A stretch of DNA of 64,000 nt from an uncultured Candidatus Marinamargulisbacteria bacterium (GTDB taxonomy: Bacteria; Margulisbacteria; Marinamargulisbacteria; CAZFTP01), in NCBI GenBank assembly GCA_964521915.1, contig CAZFTP010000001.1:67611-131610 (forward strand). Reading direction: 5' to 3'. Position numbers and translations under genes: made by a program. Below are positions 3,370-61,461 of the stretch, one piece after another. Each line of letters begins with the position of its first letter. The stretch's first letter is position 1. The notes under the pieces are model-generated. The model worked only from the letters and a program-made list of their open reading frames with translations, did not search any database and was not told the origin of the DNA.

Positions 3370-3750
3370 TCACATTTCAATCGTACAAGTGGCATCAATA
3401 CCACCACGGGTGTTATAGATAGAAGTTACTTTAAGATAGTGTGGATTGAGAATTTTTTTAATGTCTTGAAAGATTCTATCTGTTACACCTTCTTGATAAA
3501 TCCCAACGTTTCTAAAAGAAACAAAATAATATTTCAAAGATTTTAACTCTACGCATAGTTTATCTGGAATATATTCAATTTTTACATGTGCAATATCCGG
3601 TAACCCAGAAAAAGGACATACCGCAGAAAATTCTTTGGTCTCGTTAAGAATATGTTGTCTTTCTCCTTCATATGGAAAGGTTTCTAAAAAATCAGTTCTG
3701 ATTTTATCTTCAGAATCAAATGTAAATTTTTTACCTTCAGCGAATATCAT
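3370..3750 (-). CDS. queF: NADPH-dependent 7-cyano-7-deazaguanine (preQ0) reductase
   Basis: 126 aa; CPFSGLPD catalytic Cys motif and ELKSLKYYF motif typical of type-I QueF. Confidence 0.85.
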
Positions 3751-3887
3751 TGTTGCTCCTTTTTATGTATACCCGTGGGGCGAAGCCCCACGGGTATACG
3801 AGAGAAATTGTTTTGCCCTGCCGGGCGGGCTTTAAGGCTTCGCCTTAAAAATCCTTTTTTTCTAAGGGGCTGCGCCTCTTAAACCCC
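3751..3887. repeat. GC-rich mosaic intergenic repeat cluster (modules A and B) between queF and the amidotransferase gene
   Basis: Perfect 33-nt hairpin at 3767-3799 (gtatacccgtggggc-gaa-gccccacgggtatac) plus ttctaaggggctgcgcctcttaaacccc unit; related copies at at least 8 other loci. Confidence 0.85.
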
Positions 3888-4457
3888 TTAAATATAATAG
3901 GCAAGAAAATTTTTAAGAATTTTCTTGCCTGGTTCAGTTAAAATAGATTCCGGGTGAAACTGAATTCCTTCAATCGGAAATTTTTTATGCCTAACGCCCA
4001 TAATAATTTTGTCTTTGGTCCAAGCAGAAATTTCTAAATCATCAGCTAAATTGTTATTATCTATAACCAAAGAATGGTATCTGGTAGCAATAAAAGGGTC
4101 TTCTATATCTTTAAAAATCGTTTTATTATCATGAAAAATTTCTGATGTTTTCCCATGCATTAAACTTGGTGCATAAGTAATTTTTGAACCAAAAACTTGA
4201 CCAATGGCTTGATGCCCCAAACAAACACCCAAAATCGGAATTTTAGGTCCTAATTTTTCTACAACTTCTTGAGATATTCCTGCATGTTCTGGTCTACCTG
4301 GCCCTGGTGAAATTACTAAATATTTTGGTTTTAATTTTTCGATTTCTTCAACGCTTAAAACGTCATTACGAATTACCTTAATATCTTGCCCAAGCTCACC
4401 AAAGTATTGGACTAGGTTATAAGTAAATGAATCATAATTATCAATAATTAATAGCAT
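3888..4457 (-). CDS. glutamine amidotransferase component II of anthranilate/aminodeoxychorismate synthase (TrpG/PabA type)
   Basis: MLLIIDNYDSFTYNL N-terminus, GVCLGHQ catalytic Cys, HPES motif; start moved to the internal ATG at 4457, which is preceded by AAGGAAA. Confidence 0.85.
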   Translation of the reverse strand: MLLIIDNYDSFTYNLVQYFGELGQDIKVIRNDVLSVEEIEKLKPKYLVISPGPGRPEHAGISQEVVEKLGPKIPILGVCLGHQAIGQVFGSKITYAPSLMHGKTSEIFHDNKTIFKDIEDPFIATRYHSLVIDNNNLADDLEISAWTKDKIIMGVRHKKFPIEGIQFHPESILTEPGKKILKNFLAYYI

Positions 4458-4493
4458 TAGTATTTCCTTGTATCTCCATTGGGCTACGCCCAA

Positions 4494-4719
4494 TGGAGAT
4501 ACGAAAAAGATATTTTTCTAAGGGACTCCGTCCCTTAAACCCTGTGGGGCTTCGCCCCGAGAACTAACAAGGTTTTTCTAAGGGGGCAAGCCCCTTCAAC
4601 CCCCAAAAATCATGTTAATCATTTAATCATGCGAATCCTGGTTCAGACAGTTCTCCGTCCCTTAAACCCTAGGTTTTATTTATGTATACCCGGGTGGCTC
4701 CGCCACCCGGGTATACGAA
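4494..4719. repeat. GC-rich mosaic repeat cluster (modules B, C, A) inserted between the component I and II synthase genes
   Basis: Units gggactccgtccc, ggggcaagcccc and gggcttcgcccc; ATCAT array at 4606-4650; perfect hairpin at 4684-4716 (gtatacccgggtggc-tcc-gccacccgggtatac). Confidence 0.85.
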
Positions 4720-6123
4720 TTACAAAATCGCTTGCAACAACGCGTAAGCTTTGTGGCAAGTTTCTTGATATTCCTTTTCAGGGTCAGAATCTGTTACAAT
4801 TCCAGCGCCAGCTTGAACATAAAGCTTACCAGCTTTTGCTAGAATAGTCCTAATAATAATACAAAAATTTAGATTATCTTGAAAATCAAAATAACCCATG
4901 GCACCGGCATATGGTCCGCGTTCACAAGGTTCCAGTTCTTCAATAATTTCCATAGCCCTAATTTTAGGCGCACCACTTACTGTGCCAGCTGGAAAAGTTG
5001 CCTTAAAAAGATCAAAAGCATCAAATTCGAGTTTTAATTTGCCAGTAACTTTAGTAACCATATGAATTACCCGAGAATATTTTTCAATATCAAACATATT
5101 TTCGGTTTTTACTTCATCAGCTACTCGGTTTAAATCGTTTCTGGCTAAATCTACCAGCATAATGTGTTCTGCTCTTTCTTTCTCATCTTGCAATAAATCG
5201 GCTATTACTTCCGGCTCTTTTAAAAAGTCATCCGGTCTTTGACGCGTACCTGCTATTGGTCTTAATTCTGCTATTCGATTATCGGATCTTACCAAAATTT
5301 CCGGCGAAGTACCAATAATCTGAAATTCAGGAGTATTATAGTAAAACATGTATGGTGAAGGGTTAATAAAACGTAATTTCCGGTAAATATCAAACGGGTT
5401 TTCTTTGGATTCAAAACTAAATTTCTGAGATAAAACTAGCTGAAAAATATCACCCTCAAAAATATAGTTTTTAGCTTTTTCAACTGCTTTTTTAAAATCT
5501 TCTTTTTTAAAATTACTTTGAATTTTTTCAAAAGGAATATGCTTTTGAATATTAGTTAAGAGTTTATTCTCACCCTGAAGTGGTTTTAAAATTCTTTTTT
5601 CAATTTCCGCTATTTTTTGTTTTGCTTTTTGTTCATCCTCTTTTTCAGCTAAAACTAAAATTATTACTTTTCTTTTTACATGGTCAAAAATTACCAGTGA
5701 ACCTGGAAAAAGAAAATGCATTAAAGGAAAATCAGTTTTTTCTTTATCTCGTTTATTGATTTTTTCAATATGATGAATTATCTCCCAACTAAAAAAACCG
5801 ATTGCACCACCAAAAAAATCCGGTAATAAAGGATCTTTTTTTACATCAAATTGGTGGTTTAGATTTCTAAGAATACTAATAGGGTTCTCTTTGGATTTAG
5901 ATGTTTTGTTTTCTAAAGTTATGGTTGTTTCATTATAATCATTTGTAACTTGGCAAAACGGATCAAAACCAATGAAGGAAAATCTCGCTAAATTTTCACC
6001 ACCAGTTACACTTTCTAATAAAAAGCTATTAGGTACATTAAGTTTAAGATAAAGCGAAACCGGAGTTTCCAAATCATCTAAGATTTCTTTATAAAAGGGA
6101 AAAAGTAATTTTTTTTCTGTCAT
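4720..6123 (-). CDS. anthranilate / para-aminobenzoate synthase component I (TrpE/PabB family)
   Basis: 467 aa chorismate-binding enzyme; C-terminal GTVSGAPK...PCERGPYAGAMGY...GAGIV motifs; no other trp genes nearby, so PabB is possible. Confidence 0.8.
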   Translation of the reverse strand: MTEKKLLFPFYKEILDDLETPVSLYLKLNVPNSFLLESVTGGENLARFSFIGFDPFCQVTNDYNETTITLENKTSKSKENPISILRNLNHQFDVKKDPLLPDFFGGAIGFFSWEIIHHIEKINKRDKEKTDFPLMHFLFPGSLVIFDHVKRKVIILVLAEKEDEQKAKQKIAEIEKRILKPLQGENKLLTNIQKHIPFEKIQSNFKKEDFKKAVEKAKNYIFEGDIFQLVLSQKFSFESKENPFDIYRKLRFINPSPYMFYYNTPEFQIIGTSPEILVRSDNRIAELRPIAGTRQRPDDFLKEPEVIADLLQDEKERAEHIMLVDLARNDLNRVADEVKTENMFDIEKYSRVIHMVTKVTGKLKLEFDAFDLFKATFPAGTVSGAPKIRAMEIIEELEPCERGPYAGAMGYFDFQDNLNFCIIIRTILAKAGKLYVQAGAGIVTDSDPEKEYQETCHKAYALLQAIL

Positions 6124-8928: not shown

Positions 8929-9130
8929 ACTTAATCATTATAACAGAGTTTTAAGGGGTTTTTAAGTGGCTTTAGCCCCTATTTATATATACCCATGAGG
9001 CTTCGCCTTTTGAGTTTTTCATGTATACCAGAGTGGCTTCGCCACCCGGGATTCTTAAAGGGGGCAAGCCCCCTTAAACTCCATGAGTTTACCCTAGTGC
9101 CTTTTGCCTTGAGTTTCCAGTGTCTTTTAC
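8929..9130. repeat. GC-rich mosaic repeat cluster (modules A-degenerate, B, D)
   Basis: Units gggggcaagccccc and ctagtgccttttgcct; degenerate gtatacc...gccacccggg hairpin. Confidence 0.75.
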
Positions 9131-9226
9131 CTATTTTTACAAAAATAAAATAAGTTTTTTTATATTTACAAAAATAAAAAAACTAAGTATATTAGCTTTT
9201 AATAGTAAAAAATAAGAGGTGTGATA

Positions 9227-9774: not shown

Positions 9775-11175
9775 ATGGCCAAAAACACACTTTATAACAA
9801 AGTCTGGGATCTTCATAAAATTGCTACTTTACCAACAGGACAAGATCAGATTTTTATTGGTTTGCATTATATGCACGAAGTTACAAGCCCAGCCGCTTTT
9901 TCTTTTTTAAGAGAACGAAAAGAAAAAGTGTTATTACCTCACCGCAATTTTGCTACTTACGATCACGTAATCCCTACGGATGATCAATCCCGTCCATTTA
10001 AAGACCAAGAAGCAGAAATTATGGCAAGTACCATTGAAAAAAATACAAAAGAATTTGGCATTACTTTTTTTGGTTTAAATTCCGGTAAAGAAGGTGTTGT
10101 CCATATTATTGGACCGGAGCATGGAATCACTAAACCAGGTATGATTATTGCTTGTGGAGATAGTCACACCAGTACGCATGGCGCGTTTGGCTCTTTGGCA
10201 TTTGGCATCGGAACTACAGAAGTAAGCATGGTTTTAGAAACTCAAACCTTAGCTTTGAATCCGTTAAAAGTACGTAAAATTCAATTTAACGGTACTATGC
10301 AAAAAGGGGTTTCTGCTAAAGATTTAATTTTAAAAGTAATTCAAGTTTTAGGTGTAAATGGTGGTTTAGGTTATGCTTATGAATTTAGCGGTGATGTAAT
10401 CAGTAAAATGAACATGGATGAAAGAATGACTATCTGCAATATGAGTATTGAGGGTGGAGCAAGAATTGGGTATATTAACCCAGATCAAATTACTTTTGAT
10501 TATATTAAAGATCGTGAATATGCACCAAAAGGGGCTGATTTCGATAAAGCTGTAAAATTTTGGCATTCAATAGCAAGTGATAAAGACGCAGTTTATGATG
10601 ATGTAGTAGAATTTGATGTGTCAAAAATTGAACCAATGATAACTTGGGGTATTAACCCAGGTATGGTCATGGGAATTAGCGAAAAAATCCCGATGCTAAA
10701 AGATTTGTCAGAAGCAGAACAAAAACATATTAAGCATGCTTTAGATTATATGAAATTTAAAGAAGGGCAATCACTTTTAGGTTTACCAGTAGATGTAGTA
10801 TTTATTGGGTCTTGTACTAACGGCCGAATGACAGACTTTAGGATTGCTGCAGAAATCATGAAAGGTAAAAAAGTTGCTGATAATGTTAAATGTTTGGTTG
10901 TACCTGGTTCTGCTGCCATTAAAAAGCAAGCAGAAGCAGAAGGCTTAGACAAAATATTTATTGATGCAGGTGCTGAGTGGCGTTATGCGGGTTGTTCGAT
11001 GTGTTTGGCGATGAACCCAGATAAGTTAATCGGAGATCAAATTAGCGTTTCAACTAGTAATCGTAACTTTATTGGCAGGCAAGGTAGTTCTACAGGTAGA
11101 ACTATTTTGGCTAGCCCGGCAGTTGCTGCCATCACCGCTATTAACGGTAAAATTAAGGGACCTTCGGTCCCTTAG
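9775..11175 (+). CDS. leuC: 3-isopropylmalate dehydratase large subunit
   Basis: 466 aa aconitase-family protein; [13 protein letters not shown] and GSCTNGR motifs. The last codons and stop (KGPSVP*) are encoded by a module-B-like repeat unit gggaccttcggtccc. Confidence 0.9.
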
Positions 11176-11403
11176 ACCCTAAGGATGAATATAGTATTCT
11201 TAGGGGACTTCGTCCCCTAAAACCCCTTGGGGAATAATGGTTTTTAAGGGACTCCGTCCCTTAAACCCTGGCGGGGCAAGCCCCTGCACCCCATGGATTT
11301 TTAAGGCGTAGCCTTAATATACCCAAAAGGGGTTTAAGGGGGCTTGCCCCCTTAGAAAACAATATTTTTCTCGTACTCTTTTTTGCGAAGCAAAAAAGAG
11401 TAC
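11155..11403. repeat. GC-rich mosaic repeat cluster inserted between leuC and leuD, ending in an AT-rich perfect hairpin
   Basis: Units gggaccttcggtccc, ggggacttcgtcccc, gggactccgtccc, ggggcaagcccc, gggggcttgccccc; hairpin gtactcttttttgc-gaa-gcaaaaaagagtac at 11373-11403. Confidence 0.8.
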
Positions 11404-11419
11404 ATAAAAAGGTGTAAAT

Positions 11420-13720: not shown

Positions 13721-13773
13721 TGTTGTTCTCCTTTTTTCTTTTTTGAAAAGAAACAAAATTTTTTATTTTATAT

Positions 13774-13803
13774 CTACTTTCTTTTTGTGAAAAAAGAAAG
13801 TAG
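13774..13803. promoter_or_regulatory. perfect 13-bp inverted repeat (ctactttcttttt-gtga-aaaaagaaagtag) about 55-85 nt upstream of hcp; candidate operator
   Basis: Read directly from the sequence; a second shorter palindrome tttcttttttgaaaagaaa lies at 13733-13751. Confidence 0.5.
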
Positions 13804-13816
13804 CAAAGAAAATCAC

Positions 13817-13915
13817 CCCAAAACACAGGGACCCGCTATTTGTGTGCTCAGCTCCACCCATCCCCCCGTGGGACCCCTTACGCTGTGCACAAAAACAGCG
13901 ACCTATGTTTTGGGG
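13817..13915. other. GC-rich structured element (about 99 nt) flanked by inverted ccccaaaaca/tgttttgggg arms, in the rrf2-hcp intergenic region
   Basis: Local GC is far above background; internal complementary segments (tttgtgtgctcagc / gctgtgcacaaa). Confidence 0.45.
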
Positions 13916-14053
13916 TTTGAACTCTTTTTTTACTCCCTCTCCTTAATAAGGAGAGGGGTGAGGTTATATTCCCCCTCGTTTTTTGCTTAAAAATCTAAAA
14001 ATTAACCAAAATATACCTGCCAGCAAAAAGAGAGGGGGTCAGGGGGTGAGTTA

Positions 14054-14449: not shown

Positions 14450-14690
14450 CTCCTAAATAAAACCATTTTAGTCTTATTTAAGAGTATGACCAAAAAATTA
14501 AGCTTTGTCAACAATATTATTAATATATTTACTTTGGTACTAGTGCGCTGGAAATATTTCTCTAATCTTATATAATAAAAAATACAAAAAAAAATTTAAA
14601 TATCAATAATTTAATAATCAGCGCTCCAAAAATAGCAAAATAATGTTTCAAAAAATTACTTTATTGGAAAAATATACTAGAGGATAAAAA

Positions 14691-21027: not shown

Positions 21028-21126
21028 AATTTATGTCTATCTATAAGGGTCTCCGTCCCTTAAACCCTGATTTTTTTTCTCCTGTCTCCTGACTCCGGTC
21101 TTCTGTCTCCCGAGCCCCTCTAGTAC
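21028..21126. repeat. GC-rich repeat cluster (module B unit, CT-rich tctcctg repeats, module D)
   Basis: agggtctccgtcccttaaaccct; ctctagtacct overlaps the thiC stop codon. Confidence 0.7.
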
Positions 21127-22596
21127 CTATTCTCCAAATACTTTCATGGCACAAAAATTCGGACCACACATAGAACAATAATTTTTACCCTTATTATTTT
21201 CTAACAAATAACCAAATTTAAGATAACTATCCGGATCTAAACTTAATTTGAATTGATCTTCCCATCTAAATTCTTTTCTTGCTATTGATAAAGCCAAATC
21301 ACGCGCTATAGCTAAAGGTAATTGTTTACTTAAATCTGCGGAATGCGCCGCAATTCGATGAAAAATTATACCTTCTTTTACATCAGCCAAATCAGGTAAA
21401 CCTAAATGCTCCTTAGGTGTAACATAACAAAGCATAGAAGTACCTAAGTGAGCTATTAAAGCACCTCCTATAGCAGAAGACAAATGATCATACCCCATGG
21501 CACTATCTGTTACCAAAGGACCTAAGGTATAAAAAGGTGCCGACTTTGTATATTCAATTTCTTTTTGCATATTTTCAGGGATCTTATCTAAAGTTACATG
21601 CCCTGGTCCTTCAATCATGGTTTGCACATTATATTTATAAGCTATTTCTTTTAATTGTCCTAAAACTTTTAATTCGCCAAATTGCGCTTCATCATTAGCA
21701 TCAAAAATAGAACCTGGTCGTAAACCGTCACCCAAACTAAAACAAACATCATATTTAGCTAAAATCTGACAAATTTCTTCAAAATGCTCAAATAAAAAGT
21801 TTTCCTTATTAAATATCCGGCACCACTTGGCTAAAATTGCTCCTCCGCGCGATACTATACCTAACCTTCTTTTTTCTGCCAAAGGAATAAATTCCTTTAA
21901 TACACCAGCATGAATAGTAAAATAATCAACTCCTTGTTCAGCTTGTTCCAAAATTACTTCTTTAAAAACTGACCAGGTTAAATCTTTTATCTCCCCACCA
22001 ACTTTTTGTAAAGCTTGATAAATCGGTACAGTACCAATAGGAACAGGTGAATTTCGTAAAATTCTGTCTCGAGTTTCGGTTATATCATTTCCGGTAGAAA
22101 GATCCATAACTGTATCTGCTCCATACCAAATAGAACACACCATTTTTCCTAATTCTTTTTCAATAGAAGAACAACCGGTTGAATTACCTATATTGGAATT
22201 AATTTTTGTTTTAAATTTAGACCCAATAATCATTGGTTCTAATTCCACATGATTTACGTTAGCTGGAATAATAGCTCTACCTTCTGCAACCTCTTTTAAA
22301 ACTAGTTCTATGGGAAATCCTTCCCTTAAAGCCACAAATTCCATTTCAGGAGTGATATTACCTTCTTTTGCTGATTTCAATTGAAAATTACTTTTATTCC
22401 TTAATGGTTTAAGCCCTGTATTAAAATCAGTCTGAAAATTTTCTATAGAATAAGGACCGGAAGTATCGTATAAATTAATTTTTTCTTTATTAGAAAGAAT
22501 TACTTGTTGAAAAGGAATTTTTTGTTCTGGGAATTTCTCCCCTTTTTTAAAAATTTTCTCTGCACCATAGTATTTTCGGGATTCATTAAATTTCAT
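21127..22596 (-). CDS. thiC: phosphomethylpyrimidine synthase
   Basis: 489 aa radical-SAM-like ThiC; C-terminal [11 protein letters not shown] motif. Confidence 0.9.
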
Positions 22597-22710
22597 TTTT
22601 ATTCCTCGTTCAATTCATTATACCTAGATCAATAGTTTTGGAACAGAGGAATTTTTTTATGTGCTTAAATTTTTTTGCTTTGCAAAAAAATTTAAGCACT
22701 AATCGATCTA

Positions 22711-23619: not shown

Positions 23620-23662
23620 ATGAGTCTGTCGCAAAATGAGAAATAGCCATTTTGTAGCAGGT
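23620..23662. repeat. MITE-like inverted-repeat element, copy 1 (gagtctgtcgcaaaatg...ccattttgtagcagg)
   Basis: Shares the terminal-repeat core with copies at 24688, 35941, 36040, 44897 and 55060. Confidence 0.7.
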
Positions 23663-24687: not shown

Positions 24688-24757
24688 TAGTCTGTCGCAA
24701 AATGAGACATTTTTTCAAAATAGTTTTGAGAAATAGCCATTTTGTAACAGACTCATC
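24688..24757. repeat. MITE-like inverted-repeat element, copy 2 (full length, about 70 bp)
   Basis: agtctgtcgcaaaatgagacattttttcaaaatagttttgagaaatagccattttgtaacagactc. Confidence 0.75.
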
Positions 24758-24769
24758 AAATTATAATTT

Positions 24770-25690: not shown

Positions 25691-25854
25691 AAAAACGCCT
25701 CCTTCCCCATTTTTACCTATTATTGTAGCAAAAATAATAAAATAAAATTTTGTTTTTCGTAAATAGTATATACCACTTATTTTTTATTTTTAAACATTTT
25801 AATATATTTTTTGATTTATAATTATTATCGTAGTTATGTAAATTTTATTACATG

Positions 25855-26120
25855 GATTGTTTATAATGTATACCCAGGGTGCGGAGCACCCTGGGTATAC
25901 GAGAAAAGGTAGTTTTCTAAGGGGCTTCGCCCCTTATACCCCATGGGGCTTTCGCCCCGAGAAACAAGGGAAATTATTTTCGAAGGGCTTTTTTTCATGA
26001 TTCTATCTTAACCCTTAATCTTACTCCTTAACCTTATTAGCAGACCCCCTTAAACCCCCTATAAAATCATGCTAATCATTTAATCATACGAATCATGGTT
26101 CAAGACATTCCCTATTGCCT
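25855..26120. repeat. GC-rich mosaic repeat cluster (modules A, B, B', C); the most complete composite locus
   Basis: Perfect hairpin at 25868-25900 (gtatacccagggtgc-gga-gcaccctgggtatac); ggggcttcgcccc and ggggctttcgcccc units; ATCAT array atcatgctaatcatttaatcatacgaatcatggttcaagacattcc. Confidence 0.85.
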
Positions 26121-30379: not shown

Positions 30380-30707
30380 TGTATTTATTTTTCCCTAATA
30401 ATCCTATTTTTTATTTTAAAAAAGAAACAAAATTTTATATTTATGTATCCCCAGGGTGCTTCGCACCCTGGGGATACATAAAAAACTCATGAGATGAGGG
30501 TAAAAATTCACCCTCTTTAACCTCGTAGAGCTATCATATCTGAACTCCGATTTATAGAATTATAAGATTTTCTTGATTAAAGGGTATATCTTAGGCTTAC
30601 TTATTTCTTTAATCATGCTAATCATTTAATCATGTAAATCATGGTTCAAGACATTTCCCTGAGCCCCACTAGTGCCTAGTGCCTTTTGCCTAGTACCTGT
30701 TCCCCAT
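30380..30707. repeat. mosaic repeat cluster (module E aaaagaaacaaaatttt, module A hairpin 30445-30477, ATCAT array, module D ctagtgcctagtgccttttgcctagtacct)
   Basis: Perfect hairpin gtatccccagggtgc-ttc-gcaccctggggatac; module D abuts the stop codon of the leuA/cimA-family gene. Confidence 0.85.
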
Positions 30708-35792: not shown

Positions 35793-35940
35793 CGTAAATA
35801 ATGATAAGTAAAAATAAATACTTGACGTTACTATAATTTCTGCATTATACTATATTTATCAAGCTTGAAGAAAAGCTCTATCAGCTGAGGGCTTTTCCAA
35901 AACTACCCTAAATTTGTTTAAGACACAAATTATAAAGAGA

Positions 35941-35982
35941 GTTTGTCGTGAAATAAATTTTTTTCAAAATAGAAGTCATAAA
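35941..35982. repeat. degenerate MITE-like copy
   Basis: gtttgtcgtgaaataaatttttttcaaaatagaagtcat matches the family core with substitutions. Confidence 0.45.
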
Positions 35983-36039
35983 TTAATTTTTGATTTGGAG
36001 TTTATGCTTATAAATAATTAATTTTAACGCACTAGTTTG

Positions 36040-36068
36040 GGAAAATAGCCATTTTGCTACAGACTCAA
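36040..36068. repeat. MITE-like half copy (aaatagccattttgctacagactc) upstream of ssb
   Basis: Right-arm terminal repeat only. Confidence 0.6.
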
Positions 36069-36119
36069 AGGAGAAAATAAAAAAAATAACCTAACCTTAC
36101 TTTAAAAAGAGGTGTTAAA

Positions 36120-36464: not shown

Positions 36465-36469
36465 TGGCT

Positions 36470-36504
36470 GTTATCTCCATGGTGCATAGCACCATGGAGA
36501 TAAC
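36470..36504. terminator. perfect 16-bp GC hairpin between the convergent ssb and OMP genes
   Basis: gttatctccatggtgc-ata-gcaccatggagataac. Confidence 0.6.
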
Positions 36505-36510
36505 AACTAA

Positions 36511-38057: not shown

Positions 38058-38065
38058 GATATTTA

Positions 38066-38098
38066 ATTATATGTTGAGGCTACGCCTCAACATATAAT
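38066..38098. terminator. perfect 15-bp hairpin between rpsJ and tRNA-Lys
   Basis: attatatgttgaggc-tac-gcctcaacatataat. Confidence 0.55.
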
Positions 38099-38430
38099 TA
38101 AGAGTTTAACTTGATTTCTATATCTACGCCTTGCGGTAAATCTAATTGCATTAAAGCATCCATAGCAGAAGCTGGTGGATCTATGATATCAATTAATCTT
38201 TTATAAATTCTGATTTCATAATGCTCCCCCCCTCTTTTGTGCACATGAGGAGATTTAAGGATACACCATACTTTTTTTTCAGTTGGTAATGGAATTGGCC
38301 CAACTACTTTAGCACCGGATTTTTCGGCAGTTTTTACTATTTTCTCAGAAGATTGGTCTACTAAGATATGTTCAAATGCTTTTAATCTGATTCTGATTTT
38401 TTGTTCTTTTTTCTTTGTTGCTGTTGTCAA
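38098..38430 (-). CDS. rpsJ: 30S ribosomal protein S10
   Basis: [12 protein letters not shown]...GPIPLPT...LIDI motifs. Confidence 0.95.
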
Positions 38431-40971: not shown

Positions 40972-41791
40972 ATATTTTTTGTATTCTTTCTATAGAAATA
41001 GTTTTACCATTTTCCGTATCAATTTCTAAAATAATGCCATTTAAAAACTTATCTCCATAAGTTGGCGGTTCATATTTCACTGGCATTTGGGTTATAAATT
41101 TTTCAATAATTGGAGCCACTTCCATACCAATTACACTATCTCTAGCACCTACCATACCAATATCTGTAATATAACCAGTACCTTGCGGTAATATTCTTTC
41201 ATCAGCTGTAATAACATGAGTATGCGTACCAAAAACCGTACTTACTTTACCATCTAAAAACCAACCTAAAGCTTGTTTTTCTGACGTGGTTTCCGCATGA
41301 AAATCAACAATAACAAGATTAGTTTCAGCTTTTATTTCCGGTAAAATCCGTGATATAGTTTGAAACGGACAATCTGATAACCCCATAAAAACTCTACCAA
41401 CTAAATTAACCACTGCTATTTTATATTCATTTAACCTAAAAATTCGATAACCAACACCTGGGTTACTAAATAAATAATTTAAGGGTCGTACCATTTTTTT
41501 ATATTCATTAAAATCATTGATGCTTTCTTTCTTATTATAAATATGATTTCCGCTAGTATAAGCTTGGATATTATAATTATTAAAATCCTGATAAATCTTG
41601 GTGGTAATACCATGCCCGCCAGCTACATTTTCTATATTTACAATAGTAAAATGAATATCGTTTTCTTTTTGAATTTTAGCAAGATGTTCCTTAATAACCT
41701 GACGACCAGGTTTACCAACTACATCACCTAAACATAAGATTTTTATTTTTTTCAAAATGGTTTCCATTTCATATCCATGTAGCGAAGCCAC
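40964..41791 (-). CDS. ymdB: YmdB-like metallophosphoesterase (TIGR00282 family)
   Basis: KILCLGDVVGKPGR N-terminus; located downstream of rny as in Bacillus. Confidence 0.8.
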   Translation of the reverse strand: MASLHGYEMETILKKIKILCLGDVVGKPGRQVIKEHLAKIQKENDIHFTIVNIENVAGGHGITTKIYQDFNNYNIQAYTSGNHIYNKKESINDFNEYKKMVRPLNYLFSNPGVGYRIFRLNEYKIAVVNLVGRVFMGLSDCPFQTISRILPEIKAETNLVIVDFHAETTSEKQALGWFLDGKVSTVFGTHTHVITADERILPQGTGYITDIGMVGARDSVIGMEVAPIIEKFITQMPVKYEPPTYGDKFLNGIILEIDTENGKTISIERIQKIFE

Positions 41792-41998
41792 ATGGATATA
41801 AGAATTAATTTTCTAATGGGCTTAGCCCCTTAAACCCTTTGGGGCTAACGCCCCAACTCCAAGGGGAGATATCTTTTCTTAAGGGGCTTCGCCCCTTAAA
41901 CCCCGAGGAAGATATTTTCTCTTTTCCCAACGTTAGCACTTTAGCACGTTGAACGATTCTTGAGCCCCCCTAGTGCCTAATGCCTTCTGCCTAGTGCC
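41792..41998. repeat. mosaic repeat cluster (modules B x3, D) between ymdB and rny
   Basis: Units gggcttagccc, ggggctaacgcccc, ggggcttcgcccc; ctagtgcctaatgccttctgcctagtgcctta abuts the rny stop codon. Confidence 0.8.
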
Positions 41999-43534
41999 TT
42001 ATTTCGCTATTCCAACAGCTCTGGTTTCTCTGATAATTGCTACGCGAACTTCTCCTGGATAATCTACTTCGGTTTCAATTTTTTTAGCCATATCTAAAGC
42101 CAATTTATGAGCACTTGGGTCATCTACTTCATCTGGTTTTACCATAACCCTAATCTCTCTACCTGCTTGAATTGCAAATGCTTTTTCTACTCCTTCAAAA
42201 GTTTGGGCTAAATCTTCTAACTTTTTTAATCTCTTCACATAGTTCTCTAACGATTCTTTTCTAGCTCCCGGACGTGCGGCTGAAATTCCATCTGCTACCA
42301 TAACTAAAACAGCTTCTATAGTTTCACAAGGTACGTCTTCGTGATGAGACAAGATACAATTTAATACTTCTTCTGATTCTCCGTATTTTCGTCCAATTTC
42401 TTCACCTAATTTAGCATGGGTTCCTTCTTGCTCAAAATCTACTGCTTTGCCGATATCATGTAACAAACCAGCTCTTTTTGCTAAATTATCGTTTACGCCA
42501 AGTTCACTGGCCATTACTGAAGCCAAATGCGCTACTTCAATTGAATGCTGTAACACATTTTGTCCATAACTAGTTCTATAATATAATTTACCTAAATACT
42601 CTACTAATTTAGGGTTAACTTGAACACCTAATAAATCTACGGTTTCTTGCCCTCTTTCTTTAATTATTTCTTCTAAATCTTTTTGCGTTTTTAAAATAAT
42701 TTCTTCTATTCTGGCTGGGTGAATTCGACCATCTTCAACTAATCTTTCCAAAGCAATTTTAGCTACTTCTCTTCTAATCGGGTCAAAACAAGAAATAATT
42801 ACCGCATTTGGGGTATCATCAATAATTACATCCACCCCAGTCATAGCTTCAAAAGAACGGATATTTCTACCTTCTCTACCAATCACTCTCCCTTTCATTT
42901 CGTCATCTGGCAACATAATTATAGTAGTAGTTGTCGGGGAAATATGATCCATAGTAGTTCTTTGTATAGCGGTAGTAATAATTTCTTTTGCTTTCCTATT
43001 AGCAATTTTTCTTGCTTGTTCTTCTACTTGTTTAATAATTAAGCCTGCTTGATTTCTGCTATCTCTTTCTACATTTTTTAAGACTATTTCTTTAGCGTCA
43101 TCTTTAGAGATGCCTGCCGTTTTTAGTAGTTTCTCATTTAATTCTTCTACTAAACTCTCTTGTTTCTTTTTTAACCCTTTAACTCTATCAATTTCTTGAT
43201 TTAATTGTAAATCTCTTTCTGCCAAAAGAGCTTCTTTTTCTGCAATAAATTTTTCTTTTTGTAATAATTTTTCCTCAATTTGCTCAAATTCTTTTCTATG
43301 TGTGCGCAATTCATCTTCAATTAAATTTTTAGATTTAAAAATTATTTCTTTACTATCTGTTTCAGCTTTAAATAAAATTTCATTGGCCTTTTCTTTAGCA
43401 GATTTAATTTTATTGGCAATTTCTGTCTCTGCCCATAGAATTTTTTTATCTGCAAACGCTTTTCTAGCAAAATAAAAAACTATTACTGCTGTAATTATTA
43501 TAATAGCTATAATTAATACTAAAGTTACTATCAA
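41999..43534 (-). CDS. rny: ribonuclease Y
   Basis: N-terminal TM helix, coiled coil, KH domain ([11 protein letters not shown]), HD domain (HHEDVP); 511 aa. Confidence 0.9.
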
Positions 43535-44562: not shown

Positions 44563-44896
44563 AATTTTCCTCCTTATTAATTATTTATGTATATTAAAGC
44601 TTCGCCTTAATATACATATAAAATACATAAAAAAAATTTTATTTATATCAATGAAAAATCTAAACAGAAGATACAGGATTACTTTGAATTAGTAATAACC
44701 AAACTAAATTTTCCAACAAAATTTATAATAAATTATTTTTTGTTAATTAACAAAAAAGATTTTTTTAATAATTTCAATTATTTACAAATATTTAAGTAAT
44801 CTAACTTTAATTTTATAGATATTAAATAGCTTATTTTATATCTAACTATTTAGTATTTTTCATAATCTAACCTTACTACTAGTATTATAACAAATT

Positions 44897-44936
44897 ATGA
44901 GTCTGTTGCAAAATGGCTATTTCGCGACAGACTCAT
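44897..44936. repeat. MITE-like compact copy with perfect 10-bp termini (atgagtctgt...acagactcat)
   Basis: atgagtctgttgcaaaatggctatttcgcgacagactcat. Confidence 0.7.
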
Positions 44937-44960
44937 TATTAAAATTTTATAGGCTTATTT

Positions 44961-47001: not shown

Positions 47002-47186
47002 TTTTTTTCCTTTTTCTTTTTAGAAAAGAAACAAAAAATTTTATTTTTAGGAGATTTTTCTTTTTGGAAAAAAGAAAAACCCTCTAAGACCCAAAAAGAA
47101 AAACTTTATTGCGGCTCAACTCGTTTTTTTCCTAAGCTAAACTTTGTGCCTTATTTTCTAAAATCATAGTCCATCAAATAATCATT
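47002..47186. repeat. degenerate repeat region (module E palindromes and an ATCAT-like array that runs into the murE 3' end)
   Basis: ttagaaaagaaacaaaaaattttat; ttttctttttggaaaaaagaaaa; aaatcatagtccatcaaataatcattttaatcacagttcaagac. Confidence 0.6.
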
Positions 47187-48457: not shown

Positions 48458-49234
48458 TTGTTTTCAGATCGCGAAGAACTAGTATTACAATATTTAAAAA
48501 CAAAAAATCAAAAATTACGCGAAAAAATTGTTTTGGCTTATAAACCGTTAACAGATTATATTGCCCGTAAAATGGCATATAACAGAGACGATTTAGAAGA
48601 TATTATCCAAATTAGTACTATTGCCTTACTAAAATCTTTGGAAAGATATAACCCAAATAAAGAAGTCGATTTTTCTTCTTTTGCTTCACCAAACATTATT
48701 GGAGAAATAAAACATTATTATCGCGATAAAGGAAATTTAATAAAAATTCCTAGACGCATTCAAGAAACCTATTCTAAAATCAAAAACTTTATAAAAGTTT
48801 TTACCCAAGAACAAAAACGCGCTCCCACAATTAAAGAAATTTCTGCTACAATTGATGTTCCTGCAGATACTATTTTAGAAGTTCTGGAGACAATTCAATT
48901 AACAAATATCGTATCTTTAGATGCGCCTTTATACAATGAAAATGTTTCAAAAGGAACAGACCATTTAACTTTAATGAATAGTTTAGGCGTAAAACCGTCG
49001 CATAGTTTTCTTTTAACAGAAGAACATCTCAAAGAAGCTTTAAAACATATTAATGAACGAGAAAAATATATTATTTTCCTAAAATTTTATGAAGGCTATT
49101 CACAAAGAGAAATTGCGGAAAAAATTCATATGTCACAAATGCATGTATCTAGACTATTAAATAGTGCTCTTAAAGCCTTAAAAAAAGAAATTATTAAAAC
49201 TAAAAAAACAGATGAAGAAGAACAAGGAGGTTAA
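48458..49234 (+). CDS. group-3 alternative sigma factor (SigB/SigF/SigG-like), TTG start
   Basis: Region 2 FSSFASPNIIGEIKHYYRD; region 4 HTH REIAEKIHMSQMHVSRL; AAGGTG RBS. Confidence 0.75.
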   Translation: MFSDREELVLQYLKTKNQKLREKIVLAYKPLTDYIARKMAYNRDDLEDIIQISTIALLKSLERYNPNKEVDFSSFASPNIIGEIKHYYRDKGNLIKIPRRIQETYSKIKNFIKVFTQEQKRAPTIKEISATIDVPADTILEVLETIQLTNIVSLDAPLYNENVSKGTDHLTLMNSLGVKPSHSFLLTEEHLKEALKHINEREKYIIFLKFYEGYSQREIAEKIHMSQMHVSRLLNSALKALKKEIIKTKKTDEEEQGG

Positions 49235-50811: not shown

Positions 50812-52518
50812 TTAGGAAACTCTTTTTATAATAAGTAAAGAAATATCATCTCGCATTTCATGAATAGCTATTTTTTGTATTTTTTCTTTAATTGTTGCTA
50901 TTATTTTTTCTGCCGGCAATTCCGGATCTTGAATAAAATCCGCTAATAACAAATGATCTGAAATTATATCCCCATTTTTATCTTTTTGATCAAATAAACC
51001 ATCTGTATATAGTAAAAGAAAATCGCCAATATTAAGAAAAACTTCTTTTTCTTCTACATCAATATTATCAAAAACACCTAAAATAACCCCAGTTTGTTTT
51101 GGTAAAAAATCCATTTTCCTTTCTTGACTGTTATAATAGATAGGGGCTTCATGACCTGCTCTAACAAATGAAAATAAATGTTTTTTAGTATCTAATAAAC
51201 CATAAATTGCAGTTAAATACATTAAACTTTCATGGTTAGAATTTGAATTAAAAATATTGAGAACTTTATTAAATTCTTTAATTACATTTTGTGGCAAAAC
51301 TTTATTTAAAATAGAAAGCCATAATAAAGTTTTAGACATCATCATATATAAAGCGGCAGAAATACCTTTACCGGAAACATCTCCGATAACAACACCTAAA
51401 TTATCTTGAATTTTAATAAAATCATAGAAATCTCCACCTATTTTTTTAGCTGGTAAATTAAAGGCCGCTATTTGATAGCCTAAAATATGCGGAATATTTT
51501 TAGGTAAAAAATCTTGCTGAATTTTATTGCCAATATCATAGTCTCTATTCATTAATTCTAATTGCGCATTTTTTATCTTAATATTTAAAGAAAAAATAAT
51601 TAAGAGAATTAAACTACTACATATAATAATAAGTATTCCTAAAAAAGTAATTTTCAAGAAAGTGGGAAAAATTAAATTGTTAATAATCTCTTTAGGTGTA
51701 GATACTAAAATAATCCACTTTAGGTTAAAAGTTTTTATAGTATCGTAAGAAGCAATGTATTCAATATTTTGTTTTTTATATTTAACACTACCTTTTTTAT
51801 TCTTTTGTATTTCACTATAACGAATATTAGGAATTAATTCAGAAAAATCCTTTTTAAAAGTAATCTCTTTATTAGTAAAAATAATTTTACCTTTATTATC
51901 TATAACATAAAATGATTGAAGAGAATTGAACCCTAATATTGAGGTTAACCTGTCAAAAATATATTTTAAACTAATATCAACTGCTAATACACCATTAAAA
52001 ACATTATTATTAGTTGTAAGCGGGACACCAAGTATAATTGAAGGAATTTGATATTTTAAATCTGTATATTGTTCACCACCGGCAATTACACAATCTGTAA
52101 TATAAGGCTTAAGATTCTTACAACTTTGAAAATATTCTCTGTAAGCATAATTTTTATTTAATGATTCTTTTTGATAATTTGGATAAATATATTTGAGAAA
52201 GCCTAATGTATCTTCGATATAAATTCCAGTAATCTTATTTTTCTGAAGATTATAAAGTGGTAAAATTTTTTGCTGAAATTCAGAATCATTCTCAGGAATT
52301 TTCTTGAAGCTCTTAGATAAAAACAATAATTGAAATTCTAAATCATCAAAAAAATCTTGTAGATTAAAACTTAATTCTTGCAATAATTGCTGTTCTTGAT
52401 TAAAAAGCTCATCTTCAATATTAATTTTAGTAGTATGATAAGCAGTAAAACTAAAATAAGAAAAAAAAGCTAGTAATAAAGCAATGCAAAAAGTAGAAAA
52501 AAGAATATATTTATTCAT
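50812..52518 (-). CDS. membrane sensor with C-terminal SpoIIE/PP2C-type phosphatase domain (RsbU-like)
   Basis: N-terminal TM helix, extracytoplasmic sensor-like region, second TM helix, PPM domain (GDVSGKGISAALYM...YTDGL...MRDDISLLII). Confidence 0.75.
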   Translation of the reverse strand: MNKYILFSTFCIALLLAFFSYFSFTAYHTTKINIEDELFNQEQQLLQELSFNLQDFFDDLEFQLLFLSKSFKKIPENDSEFQQKILPLYNLQKNKITGIYIEDTLGFLKYIYPNYQKESLNKNYAYREYFQSCKNLKPYITDCVIAGGEQYTDLKYQIPSIILGVPLTTNNNVFNGVLAVDISLKYIFDRLTSILGFNSLQSFYVIDNKGKIIFTNKEITFKKDFSELIPNIRYSEIQKNKKGSVKYKKQNIEYIASYDTIKTFNLKWIILVSTPKEIINNLIFPTFLKITFLGILIIICSSLILLIIFSLNIKIKNAQLELMNRDYDIGNKIQQDFLPKNIPHILGYQIAAFNLPAKKIGGDFYDFIKIQDNLGVVIGDVSGKGISAALYMMMSKTLLWLSILNKVLPQNVIKEFNKVLNIFNSNSNHESLMYLTAIYGLLDTKKHLFSFVRAGHEAPIYYNSQERKMDFLPKQTGVILGVFDNIDVEEKEVFLNIGDFLLLYTDGLFDQKDKNGDIISDHLLLADFIQDPELPAEKIIATIKEKIQKIAIHEMRDDISLLIIKRVS

Positions 52519-55059: not shown

Positions 55060-55116
55060 GAAGTCTGTCGCGAAATGAGAAATTTTTTCAAAATAGCCAT
55101 TTTGCAACAGATTCAT
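55060..55116. repeat. MITE-like copy upstream of fliK
   Basis: agtctgtcgcgaaatgagaaattttttcaaaatagccattttgcaacagattc. Confidence 0.7.
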
Positions 55117-55127
55117 AAGGATAAATT

Positions 55128-61135: not shown

Positions 61136-61461
61136 TAAATTCTATTGATACATCTTATTTTATCGAAAAAAATTTAGAATCAGCTGATTACCAACGTCGT
61201 ATTCAAGCTAATAACAAAAAACAAAATATTGAAGAATTTGAAAAAATTCTCCTCAAAAAAGTTTATTTAGAATCTTTAATTGATAAAGATGAAGAAGAAG
61301 ACGAAGAAAACGATAGAGGTATATTATCCAGCGATAATTCATTATATAATGAAATGTTACTTGATCTTTATGCTCAACAATTAGCAAAACAAGATATTTT
61401 TAATTTGCAAAAAATTTATAATAAAAATGAACAAACAAAAAGTACCGAACCAAACAATTAA
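61132..61461 (+). CDS. rod-binding protein (FlgJ N-terminal-domain type)
   Basis: EEFEKILLKKVYLESL...SLYNEMLLDLYAQQLAK matches the Rod-binding family. Confidence 0.6.
   Translation: MINSIDTSYFIEKNLESADYQRRIQANNKKQNIEEFEKILLKKVYLESLIDKDEEEDEENDRGILSSDNSLYNEMLLDLYAQQLAKQDIFNLQKIYNKNEQTKSTEPNN

What the first reader, a model, noticed from the sequence alone, without database searches (positions are those of the whole stretch)
13727..13770. A conserved 5' module (AAAATTTTGTTTCTTTTC-AAAAAGAAAAA-GGA) precedes three unrelated genes (hcp, murF, lysA)
Read in gene orientation, hcp has ...aaaattttgtttcttttcaaaaaagaaaaaaggagaacaacaATG. murF (47002-47045) has ...aaaattttttgtttcttttctaaaaagaaaaaggaaaaaaagGTG. 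lysA (30395-30440) has ...aaaattttgtttcttttttaaaataaaaaatagg... The block contains the TTCTTTT-N-AAAAGAA dyad and ends at the RBS. So a portable promoter/leader cassette appears to be attached to functionally unrelated genes. It could be part of the repeat family supplying promoters (as Correia elements do) or the binding site of a global regulator.
Basis: seen in the sequence. Interest (0 to 1): 0.5.

Follow-up and report, generated by a model that had tools for sequence, protein, structure and literature searches.

The report
Repeated AT-rich leader before three genes
A 45-50 base AT-rich block really is repeated just upstream of hcp, murF and lysA in this uncultured Margulisbacteria genome, but it looks like one more unit of the genome's many hairpin-type intergenic repeats sitting in the mRNA leader, not a proven promoter or regulator site.

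Summary
Three co-oriented copies of ATAAAAT..AAAATTTT(TT)GTTTCTTTTYWAAAA..AAAAA..GGA lie 0-25 nt upstream of the hcp, murF and lysA start codons. This is far above chance. The hcp and murF copies share about 95 nt, including an upstream AT-rich hairpin (H1). The lysA copy is a shorter, diverged member.

The host is a Candidatus Margulisiibacteriota genome with no close relative. Its intergenic regions are packed with hairpin repeat families that split rrf2|hcp, leuC|leuD, trpE|trpG and murE|murF. In the nearest relative, rrf2 abuts hcp with no cassette. Scans of 596 Gb of genomes and of metagenomes found no other genome with more than one copy.

The module starts with the ATAAA flank that follows the genome's "D1-type" hairpins, and in two of three cases it ends in the Shine-Dalgarno sequence.

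A sigma-70 promoter is not supported. A usable -35 exists only at hcp, and only a weak TAAAAT is shared. The internal dyad is absent in lysA and folds no better than shuffled sequence.

Best reading: a lineage-specific dispersed repeat of the REP-like kind, lying in a transcribed leader or intercistronic region, where it supplies or preserves an unstructured A/U-rich spacer plus SD. Its function is unproven. Interest is modest.

The parts
13721..13772 (-). hcp copy of the module (ATATAAAATAAAAAATTTTGTTTCTTTTCAAAAAAGAAAAAAGGAGAACAACA). It ends at the hcp ATG (13720).
   Evidence: D7; nhmmer 31.8 bits
13746..13758 (-). Invariant 13-mer core TTTTGTTTCTTTT (hcp copy)
13735..13753 (.). H2 dyad TTTCTTTT-N3-AAAAGAAA (hcp), centre at 13744
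   Evidence: As RNA it folds no better than shuffles.
13728..13733 (-). Shine-Dalgarno AAGGAG of hcp, at the 3' end of the module
   Evidence: Read from sequence. Typical SD context of this genome.
13765..13770 (-). TAAAAT, a -10-like hexamer. It is also part of the ATAAA-type 3' flank shared by D1-type hairpins.
13774..13803 (.). H1, an AT-rich perfect hairpin upstream of the hcp module (13-bp stem), centre about 13788.5
47002..47050 (-). murF copy of the module (CTAAAAATAAAATTTTTTGTTTCTTTTCTAAAAAGAAAAAGGAAAAAAA). It ends at the murF GTG (47001).
   Evidence: 30.8 bits. Identical in Logan contig L129.
47024..47036 (-). 13-mer core TTTTGTTTCTTTT (murF copy)
47013..47031 (.). H2 dyad (murF), centre at 47022
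47047..47087 (.). H1 hairpin upstream of the murF module. Core is 47055-47079, extended by flanking pairs; centre about 47067.
30395..30446 (-). lysA copy of the module (diverged). The dyad is broken and its GGA lies 22 nt before the ATG at 30379.
   Evidence: 25.5 bits; E = 0.015 with the hcp+murF model. Identical in Logan contig L001.
30420..30432 (-). 13-mer core TTTTGTTTCTTTT (lysA copy)
30440..30482 (.). GC-rich D1-type hairpin (20-bp stem, GC-TTC-GC apex). It occupies the position that H1 has at hcp and murF.
   Evidence: D1; -36.6 kcal/mol for the centroid, in which only this hairpin is paired

Best explanation
The block is a lineage-specific dispersed repeat. It is an AT-rich unit of the REP-like hairpin repeat repertoire that fills this Margulisbacteria genome's intergenic regions. 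It lies in the transcribed leader or intercistronic region of the downstream gene.

Anatomy, in the direction of the gene:
1. A stable hairpin: H1 at hcp and murF, or a GC-rich D1-type hairpin at lysA.
2. The ATAAA(AT) flank that follows D1-type hairpins throughout the window.
3. The conserved core AAAATTTT(TT)GTTTCTTTT.
4. An A-rich run that, at hcp and murF, ends in the Shine-Dalgarno sequence.

Shown: the copies are related by descent (copy-and-paste or gene conversion), and they sit in derived, repeat-built spacers.

Inferred mechanism: the repeat arrays are transcribed together with the upstream gene. The hairpin acts as an RNA boundary or stability element. The A/U-rich, essentially unstructured module keeps the SD accessible, or supplies it, for independent translation of the downstream cistron. 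On this reading it is a portable translation-initiation leader and not a promoter. The copies near gene starts persist because they restore a working ribosome-binding region after the repeats invaded.
For: Related by descent:
- hcp and murF align over about 95 nt at 68% identity, including the spacer and H1.
- The core is 86-92% identical in all three copies.
- H1 keeps its palindrome through two compensatory pair changes between hcp and murF (read).

Derived, repeat-built spacers:
- In the closest relative (hcp 64% identical, murF 71%), rrf2 stops about 20 nt before hcp, with no cassette. murF there follows another gene by 20 nt.
- The window's intergenic regions are mosaics of repeat families.

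Lineage-specific:
- The 23-25 nt pattern gives 3 hits in this 64 kb. It gives 42 single hits in 596 Gb of genomes and single hits in 80 metagenome contigs, mostly in unrelated coding sequence.

Transcribed-leader context:
- D1-type hairpins share one orientation relative to the flanking genes.
- They end 5-10 nt before the SD of queF, leuD and recA, leaving no room for a promoter.
- They split partners that are normally co-transcribed, leuC|leuD and trpE|trpG.

Tied to gene starts:
- All three copies are co-oriented with the gene and within 25 nt of its start.
- By my own calculation, random placement within these three spacers would give this with probability about 2e-4.

No stable structure in the module itself:
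- Fold z-scores are -0.06 to -0.67.
Against: - Only 64 kb of the genome could be read, so copy number and genome-wide placement are unknown.
- No transcript data exist, so read-through across the hairpin arrays is inferred, not shown.
- At hcp, a terminator-like hairpin with a T-rich tail (13816-13830) lies just upstream of H1. If it terminates, hcp would need its own promoter within the H1-module segment.
- In lysA the module's GGA is too far from the ATG (22 nt) to serve as the SD, so supplying the SD applies to only two of three copies.
- The 13-mer core is conserved more strongly than a mere unstructured spacer would need.
- No transposase or RAYT gene is in the window.
Confidence: 0.45

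Rival explanations
1. The block is a promoter cassette with operators. TAAAAT is the -10 element and transcription starts near TTTTG. The H1 dyad (about -30) and H2 dyad (about +15), 44.5 bp apart, bind a dimeric regulator that co-controls hcp, murF-mraY and lysA-cdaA-panB.
For: - TAAAAT is present in all three copies.
- hcp scores TTTTCA-17-TAAAAT.
- The exact dyad TTCTTTT-N1-6-AAAAGAA occurs 4 times, only at these two loci, against 0.11 expected. Centre-to-centre spacing is the same in both (read).
- A terminator-like hairpin precedes H1 at hcp.
- In the hydrolase intergenic region (25691-26120), a D1 hairpin is followed by a canonical TTTACA-16-TATAAA promoter, so hairpin-then-promoter is an existing layout.
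Against: - No usable -35 at murF or lysA. In lysA the -35 position is inside a GC stem, and there is no TG-extended -10.
- lysA lacks H1, and its H2 dyad is broken at its only G-C pair.
- TAAAAT is trivially common at 30% GC, and it coincides with the generic ATAAA flank of D1-type hairpins that sit right on an SD (queF, leuD).
- The equal dyad spacing follows from common descent of the hcp and murF copies.
- The three downstream gene functions have no obvious link.
Confidence: 0.2
2. The block is a neutral or selfish repeat with no role in expression. It would be a decaying AT-rich member of the hairpin repeat family. It is found next to gene starts only because of insertion-site preference for A-rich SD-proximal DNA, or because insertions elsewhere are lost.
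For: - The genome is saturated with repeat families.
- The relative has its own, different hairpin families.
- The module is absent at orthologous sites in relatives.
- The lysA copy is degenerate.
- H2 can be read as a shortened version of AT-stem hairpins such as the one before leuD (11373-11403).
Against: - Three of three copies are co-oriented and within 25 nt of a start codon.
- The SD lies inside the repeat in two copies, so these copies are necessarily part of the expression signals now, whatever their origin.
- The core is 86-92% identical.
Confidence: 0.25
3. The resemblance is a chance product of low-complexity A/T sequence.
For: - The window is 30% GC.
- A probably unrelated Patescibacteria MAG (L013) carries a 31-nt exact match to the hcp copy. 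This shows that such strings can recur across 596 Gb.
- The hcp-lysA pairwise score alone is borderline.
Against: - Markov and shuffle controls.
- The hcp-murF similarity of about 95 nt.
- The independent HMM hit on lysA.
- Shared position and orientation.
- Roughly 10^5-fold or greater enrichment over public genomes.
Confidence: 0.03

Closest known systems
REP/BIME elements (repetitive extragenic palindromes of Enterobacteria and Pseudomonas)
   Same: Short extragenic palindromic units. They are dispersed, often lie between co-transcribed genes, and are transcribed. They are known (from my own knowledge of the malEFG and other operons) to act as mRNA stability or attenuation elements. Here the hairpins split leuCD, trpEG and rrf2-hcp, and H1 and H2 are palindromes.
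   Different: There is no conserved GTAG head and no RAYT transposase in the window. Stems are AT-rich. The conserved part is a non-palindromic T-rich core plus an A-run. The unit abuts or contains the SD. Copy number in the genome is unknown.
Correia elements (Neisseria MITEs that can supply promoters and RNase III sites)
   Same: A dispersed repeat found next to gene starts that can become part of the 5' UTR and alter expression of unrelated genes.
   Different: There are no 26-bp terminal inverted repeats and no recognisable target duplication. The block is about 50-95 nt, against 100-155 nt for Correia elements. There is no complete -35/-10 pair and no sequence similarity.
5'-UTR stabiliser hairpin plus A/U-rich translational enhancer leaders (for example ompA, aprE and T7 gene 10 leaders)
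   Same: The layout is a stable hairpin, then an unstructured A/U-rich stretch, then the SD. The genome encodes RNase Y (41999-43534), an enzyme that cuts A/U-rich single strands next to hairpins.
   Different: This is purely an architectural resemblance. No 5' ends, half-lives or translation data exist. In those known cases the leader is gene-specific, not a repeated cassette.
Dual-operator repressed promoters (for example NsrR/Rrf2-controlled hcp promoters)
   Same: Two AT-rich dyads flank a -10-like box upstream of hcp, and an Rrf2 regulator gene lies next door.
   Different: The likely Rrf2 operator, conserved with the relative (AAGACT-type dyad at the rrf2 promoter, about 14450-14516), is unrelated to TTTCTTTT/AAAAGAAA. 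The same dyads precede murF, and lysA lacks them.

Membership tests
Sigma-70 promoter | -35 hexamer (at least 4 of 6 matches to TTGACA) 16-18 nt upstream of a -10 hexamer | tested here: not met
   Met only at hcp (TTTTCA-17-TAAAAT). No match in the block at murF or lysA.
Sigma-70 promoter | -10 hexamer resembling TATAAT | tested here: met
   TAAAAT is in all three copies. Its information value is low at 30% GC, and it overlaps the generic ATAAA flank of D1-type hairpins.
Intrinsic (Rho-independent) terminator | G+C-rich stem followed within 0-2 nt by a T-run | tested here: not met
   H1 and H2 are not reported by the scan. The T-rich core starts 7-15 nt after the upstream hairpin.
MITE / Correia-like element | Terminal inverted repeats and target-site duplication bounding the unit | tested here: not met
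   The ends of the hcp/murF shared segment carry only TTTCTTTT/AAAGAAAA-type low-complexity symmetry. No defined terminal inverted repeats or duplications are present.
REP/BIME-like extragenic palindromes | Short palindromic unit in extragenic DNA, dispersed in many copies | tested here: inconclusive
   The unit is palindromic and extragenic.
REP/BIME-like extragenic palindromes | Conserved GTAG head and a cognate RAYT (Y1 transposase) | tested here: not met
   No GTAG head. No Y1_Tnp or other transposase domain in any window ORF. A RAYT elsewhere in the genome is not excluded.
Operator of a dimeric transcription factor | Dyad symmetry conserved in all members of the regulon | tested here: not met
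   The dyad is exact at hcp and murF (4 sites against 0.11 expected). It is broken in lysA. The conserved part is the 5' arm and flank only.
Operator of a dimeric transcription factor | A cognate regulator that binds the site | not testable with these tools
   Needs EMSA, DAP-seq or a pull-down.
Structured cis-regulatory RNA (riboswitch, leader or other Rfam family) | Match to a curated covariance model, or a fold more stable than shuffled sequence | tested here: not met
   The only window hit at gathering score is tRNA-Lys. The hcp spacer has no hit at or above any family's gathering score in E-value mode. Module fold z-scores are -0.06 to -0.67.
Conserved regulatory site (phylogenetic footprint) | Presence upstream of orthologous genes in related genomes | tested here: not met
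   Absent upstream of hcp (L127, L128) and murF (L124, L125) in the nearest available Margulisbacteria. These are only 64-71% identical at protein level, so the test is weak.

The most novel reading that the evidence does not exclude
This Margulisbacteria lineage has a mobile expression cassette made of a hairpin, a conserved T-rich core, an A-run and an SD. The cassette travels with its REP-like hairpin repeats and re-equips genes cut off from their operon partners with a new translation-initiation region, and possibly a weak promoter. Alternatively, the T-rich core and dyads are the site of an unknown RNA- or DNA-binding regulator that couples hcp, murF-mraY and lysA-cdaA.
Probability: 0.15. 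Interest if true: 0.55.

Novelty: new member of a known kind. Interest (0 to 1): 0.3.

Why it matters
If the module is a portable ribosome-binding leader, or a weak promoter, spread by repeat invasion, it would show how an uncultured sister lineage of Cyanobacteria tolerates massive insertion of hairpin repeats inside operons. It would also give a ready-made expression element for a phylum with no genetic tools. If it is only a decaying repeat, its main value is as an annotation warning. Intergenic similarity upstream of unrelated genes in this genome reflects repeat spread, not shared regulation. These repeats also break short-read assemblies, as the Logan contigs ending at them show.

Tried and rejected
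1. Whole-collection scans for AAAATTTTN{0,2}GTTTCTTTTYWAAAA in genome contigs and metagenome contigs. No genome had more than one copy. The hits were:
   - coding sequence in marine AT-rich bacteria, which I read as the N-terminus of a KdtA-like transferase;
   - a conserved non-coding site in about 25 gut Clostridia MAGs;
   - scattered singletons.

2. L013, with a 31-nt exact match sitting among GC hairpins between convergent genes, looked like a relative. Its Fic protein's named homologs are Patescibacteria, so I treat the match as coincidence or an independent AT hairpin.

3. Retrieval of more of the source genome failed. Only short Logan contigs are available.

4. Orthologous upstream regions in the nearest relatives carry no module.

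5. Rfam at gathering and E-value thresholds gave nothing at or above any family's gathering score.

6. RNA folding of the module is not better than shuffles.

7. By-eye comparison with CodY, Rex, NsrR, NtcA, Fur, ComK and sigma-B/sigma-28-type motifs gave no convincing match. This rests on my own knowledge of the consensus sequences and was not a formal test.

8. An attenuator-like alternative pairing (H1 3' arm with H2 5' arm) is possible, but it is far weaker than H1 and is expected for any T-run/A-run sequence.

9. Two look-alike sites in coding sequence are ordinary codons of conserved protein segments: the 13-mer in queF (3514-3526) and a dyad in leuC (9894-9930).

10. A literature search for Margulisbacteria repeats or the SRA run found nothing relevant.

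Full report
OBSERVATION

On the minus strand, in gene orientation, the three sites read as follows.
- hcp: ...CTACTTTCTTTTTTCACAAAAAGAAAGTAG-ATATAAAATAAAAAATTTTGTTTCTTTTCAAAAAAGAAAAAAGGAGAACAACA-ATG
- murF: ...GGGTTTTTCTTTTTTCCAAAAAGAAAAATCTCC-TAAAAATAAAATTTTTTGTTTCTTTTCTAAAAAGAAAAAGGAAAAAAA-GTG
- lysA: ...ATGTATCCCCAGGGTGCGAAGCACCCTGGGGATACAT-AAATATAAAATTTTGTTTCTTTTTTAAAATAAAAAATAGGATTATTAGGGAAAAATAAATACA-ATG

Pfam confirms the gene identities: Prismane/hcp, Mur ligase and DAP decarboxylase. The murF GTG start aligns with the ATG of the closest homolog.

The repeat finder reports the block as family D7, three copies of 36 nt at 86-92% identity. It reports an extended hcp/murF pair as D8, 74 nt at 77% identity. 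A gapped alignment of hcp and murF gives 68% identity over about 95 nt.

IS IT MORE THAN CHANCE?

Yes.
- The exact 17-mer occurs twice, against 0.002-0.005 expected. The 13-mer core TTTTGTTTCTTTT occurs four times, against 0.09-0.21 expected under order 1-4 Markov models. One of the four is inside queF codons.
- The hcp-murF intergenic Smith-Waterman score is 36.5. In dinucleotide shuffles, the best score among all 561 intergenic pairs averages 20.5 +/- 2.1, with a largest value of 27. The hcp-lysA score is 25, which is borderline.
- A profile built from hcp and murF alone finds lysA as the best hit outside the hcp and murF regions themselves (E = 0.015).
- A profile of all three copies finds no fourth copy.
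- The pattern AAAATTTTN{0,2}GTTTCTTTTYWAAAA occurs three times in these 64 kb. It occurs as 42 isolated hits in 596 Gb of species-representative genomes, and as single hits in 80 metagenome contigs.
- The lysA and murF copies are identical in independent Logan assemblies, so they are not assembly artefacts.

The exact dyad exists at hcp and murF only. The block ends at the SD only at hcp and murF. One murF base was misquoted.

ORGANISM AND CONTEXT

The best named homologs of murF (71% identity and below) and of hcp (64%) are Candidatus Margulisiibacteriota. The source is an NCBI contig of 262,883 bp. I could not retrieve it beyond the window.

The window is about 30% GC. Its intergenic regions are mosaics of repeat families.
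- D1-type hairpins. In the direction of the flanking genes they read TTTTCTC-GTATAC-stem-GC NNN GC-stem-GTATAC-ATAAA. The stems are perfectly complementary but differ between copies.
- D2-type hairpins: TTAAGGGG-CTTCG-CCCCTTAAACCC.
- An AATCATG heptad array (D6).
- A GTCTGTCGCAAAATG palindrome (D5/D12).
- CCTAGTGCC repeats.

These arrays separate partners that are normally adjacent:
- trpE|trpG by 226 nt
- leuC|leuD by 244 nt
- rrf2|hcp by 333 nt
- murE|murF by 185 nt

In the nearest relative (L127, L128), the rrf2 reading frame stops about 20 nt before the hcp ATG. A canonical promoter and a palindromic operator lie upstream of rrf2. The 333-nt spacer in this genome is therefore a derived insertion. 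The relative has its own, different hairpin family with covarying stems and an ATAAATAAAAAATAAT flank. It has no copy of the module.

ANATOMY OF THE MODULE

The D1-type hairpins of the window are followed by an ATAAA flank, and often directly by the SD:
- queF: GGGTATAC-ATAAAAAGGAGCAACA-ATG
- leuD: GAGTAC-ATAAAAAGGTGTAAAT-ATG
- recA: TATACAT-AAATAATTAATAAGGAGG

At these sites there is no room for a promoter between hairpin and SD. The hairpins must therefore lie inside transcripts.

In the three loci of the finding, the same layout is interrupted by the specific segment AAAATTTT(TT)GTTTCTTTTYWAAAA-AAAAA. The ATAAAAT at the 5' end of the module is thus the generic hairpin flank. The A-run plus GGAG is the generic SD context of this genome. 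The family-specific part is the T-rich core.

At hcp and murF the upstream hairpin (H1) is an AT-stem version resembling the one before leuD. H1 and H2 centres are 44.5 bp apart in both loci. H1 differs between hcp and murF by two compensatory pair changes, so the palindrome is maintained. At lysA a 20-bp GC-rich D1 hairpin replaces H1, and H2 is broken at its only G-C pair.

As RNA, H2 with its flanks is no more stable than shuffled sequence (z = -0.06 to -0.67). H1 and the D1 hairpin are stable.

PROMOTER?

The consensus scan finds TTTTCA-17-TAAAAT at hcp only. It finds nothing in the block at murF or lysA. In lysA the -35 position lies in the GC stem, and there is no TG-extended -10.

Canonical promoters are easy to find elsewhere in the window:
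- TTGACA-18-TATCAT before accD
- TTGACG-17-TATACT in 35793-36119
- TTTACA-17-TATATT in 8929-9220
- TTTACA-16-TATAAA after the D1 hairpin in 25691-26120

A promoter function is therefore not supported. It is not excluded either, notably at hcp. There a terminator-like hairpin with a T-rich tail (13816-13830) precedes H1.

REGULATOR SITE?

The dyad TTCTTTT-N1-6-AAAAGAA occurs four times, all at hcp and murF, against 0.11 expected. Those two loci are copies of one roughly 95-nt segment, so this is one duplication event and not four independent sites. lysA lacks the dyad.

The probable Rrf2 operator, shared with the relative at the rrf2 promoter, is a different sequence. No known RNA family matches.

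MOST LIKELY EXPLANATION (CONFIDENCE ABOUT 0.45)

The module is a lineage-specific dispersed repeat of the REP-like kind, propagated by duplication or conversion. It sits in the transcribed leader or intercistronic RNA, downstream of a stable hairpin. There it provides an unstructured A/U-rich stretch and, in two of three copies, the SD itself.

All three copies are co-oriented with the gene and lie within 25 nt of its start. By my own calculation, random placement within these spacers would give this with probability about 2e-4. This argues that the copies are part of the expression signals, or are retained because they preserve them.

Shown:
- repetition and relatedness of the copies
- the derived nature of the spacers
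- lineage specificity
- the weak promoter signal
- the lack of RNA structure in the core

Inferred:
- read-through transcription
- a boundary role for the hairpin (the genome encodes RNase Y)
- a role in ribosome loading

RIVALS

- A promoter with dual operators: 0.2.
- A neutral or selfish decaying repeat whose position reflects insertion preference or survivorship: 0.25.
- Chance: 0.03.

COMPARISON WITH KNOWN SYSTEMS

The module works most like REP/BIME elements inside operons, and like Correia elements that become part of 5' UTRs. It fails the structural membership criteria of both: no GTAG head or RAYT in the window, and no terminal inverted repeats. It has no sequence relatives outside this genome.

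The 31-nt exact match in L013 belongs to a probable Patescibacteria MAG and lies between convergent genes. I regard it as coincidental.

VERDICT

The repeat is real and lineage-specific, and it is part of a striking repeat-invaded genome. The promoter and regulon readings are unsupported. Novelty: a new member of a known kind, short dispersed intergenic repeats. Interest: 0.3.

The decisive data are a whole-genome census of copies and 5'-end-resolved transcript maps.

Noticed in passing
window 3767-3799, 4470-4502, 4684-4716, 11373-11403, 22661-22699, 25868-25900, 30440-30482, 36469-36505, 38063-38101, 41771-41799, 44586-44618: A superfamily of perfect hairpins with a conserved apex GC-NNN-GC (loops GAA, TTC, TCC, GGA, TAC, ATA). 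The stems vary but are fully complementary. The flanks are oriented (TTTTCTC-GTATAC ... GTATAC-ATAAA) in the direction of the neighbouring genes. The loop triplet appears in either orientation between copies while the flanks stay fixed.
   Followed up: partly
window 4494-4719 (trpE|trpG), 11176-11419 (leuC|leuD), 13721-14053 (rrf2|hcp), 47002-47186 (murE|murF): Operon partners that are normally adjacent are separated by 185-333 nt of repeat arrays. In the nearest relative (L127 and L128), rrf2 stops about 20 nt before hcp.
   Followed up: partly
window 3859-3902, 4515-4605, 11200-11354, 21040-21083, 25914-25957, 41810-41919: D2-type repeat TTTCTAAGGGG-CTTCG-CCCCTTAAACCC, with at least 7 copies. 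The short stems covary. It is present in both orientations in the leuC|leuD spacer.
   Followed up: no
window 4608-4655, 26065-26112, 30611-30658: D6 repeat: an array of AATCATG-like heptads (AATCATGCTAATCATTTAATCATGTAAATCATGGTTCAAGAC) at 81-92% identity in three spacers. It appears in a recurring order with the D2 and D1 units.
   Followed up: no
window 23623-23657, 24689-24766, 36012-36078, 44910-44946, 55062-55126: Palindromic repeat GAGTCTGTCGCAAAATG...CATTTTGCNACAGACTC (families D5, D12, D13). It is found mostly next to genes of unknown function.
   Followed up: no
window 13815-13916, 13935-13957, 13971-14038: The rest of the rrf2|hcp spacer consists of three long hairpins. One is an imperfect palindrome of about 100 nt whose base (13816-13830) plus the TGATTTTCTTT tail looks like an intrinsic terminator. 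The whole spacer folds at -102.7 kcal/mol (z = -5.7). It has no Rfam hit at or above any family's gathering score.
   Followed up: partly
window 14450-14516 (minus strand); L127 about 5450-5530: Upstream of rrf2 there is a canonical -35 (TTGACA) and an AAGACT-type palindromic site (TAAATAAGACTAAAATGG...). A matching layout in the relative reads TTGACA-17-TATAAT followed by ATTAGGACTTATTTAGTCTTAAT. This is probably the autoregulatory Rrf2 operator. It is unrelated to the module's dyads.
   Followed up: partly
window 21127-22710: thiC has no TPP riboswitch hit at Rfam gathering score. Its 114-nt upstream spacer instead holds an 18-bp AT-rich hairpin with a GC-TTT-GC apex.
   Followed up: no
L013 6300-6440 (JBDRIV010000003.1): A MAG labelled only 'bacterium', probably Patescibacteria by its Fic homologs, has a 31-nt exact match to the hcp module. 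The match lies between two GC-rich hairpins in a 600-nt hairpin-rich spacer between convergent genes.
   Followed up: partly
L002-L009, L014, L017, L019-L023, L031, L033, L035, L037, L038, L040, L087, L088: About 25 gut Clostridia MAGs share a conserved non-coding stretch of about 150 nt around AAAATTTTAGTTTCTTTTTTAAAA, followed by TAAAATCCACTCTCCTTTATG. On the opposite strand this looks like a conserved leader with an RBS. It is unrelated to this finding.
   Followed up: no
window 48458-49234, 50812-52518, 61427-62206: Two sigma-70-family genes are present. One is divergent from murE and one is inside the flagellar cluster. There is also a dCache-SpoIIE (PP2C) phosphatase. Alternative sigma factors therefore exist in this genome, and their promoter motifs are unknown.
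   Followed up: no
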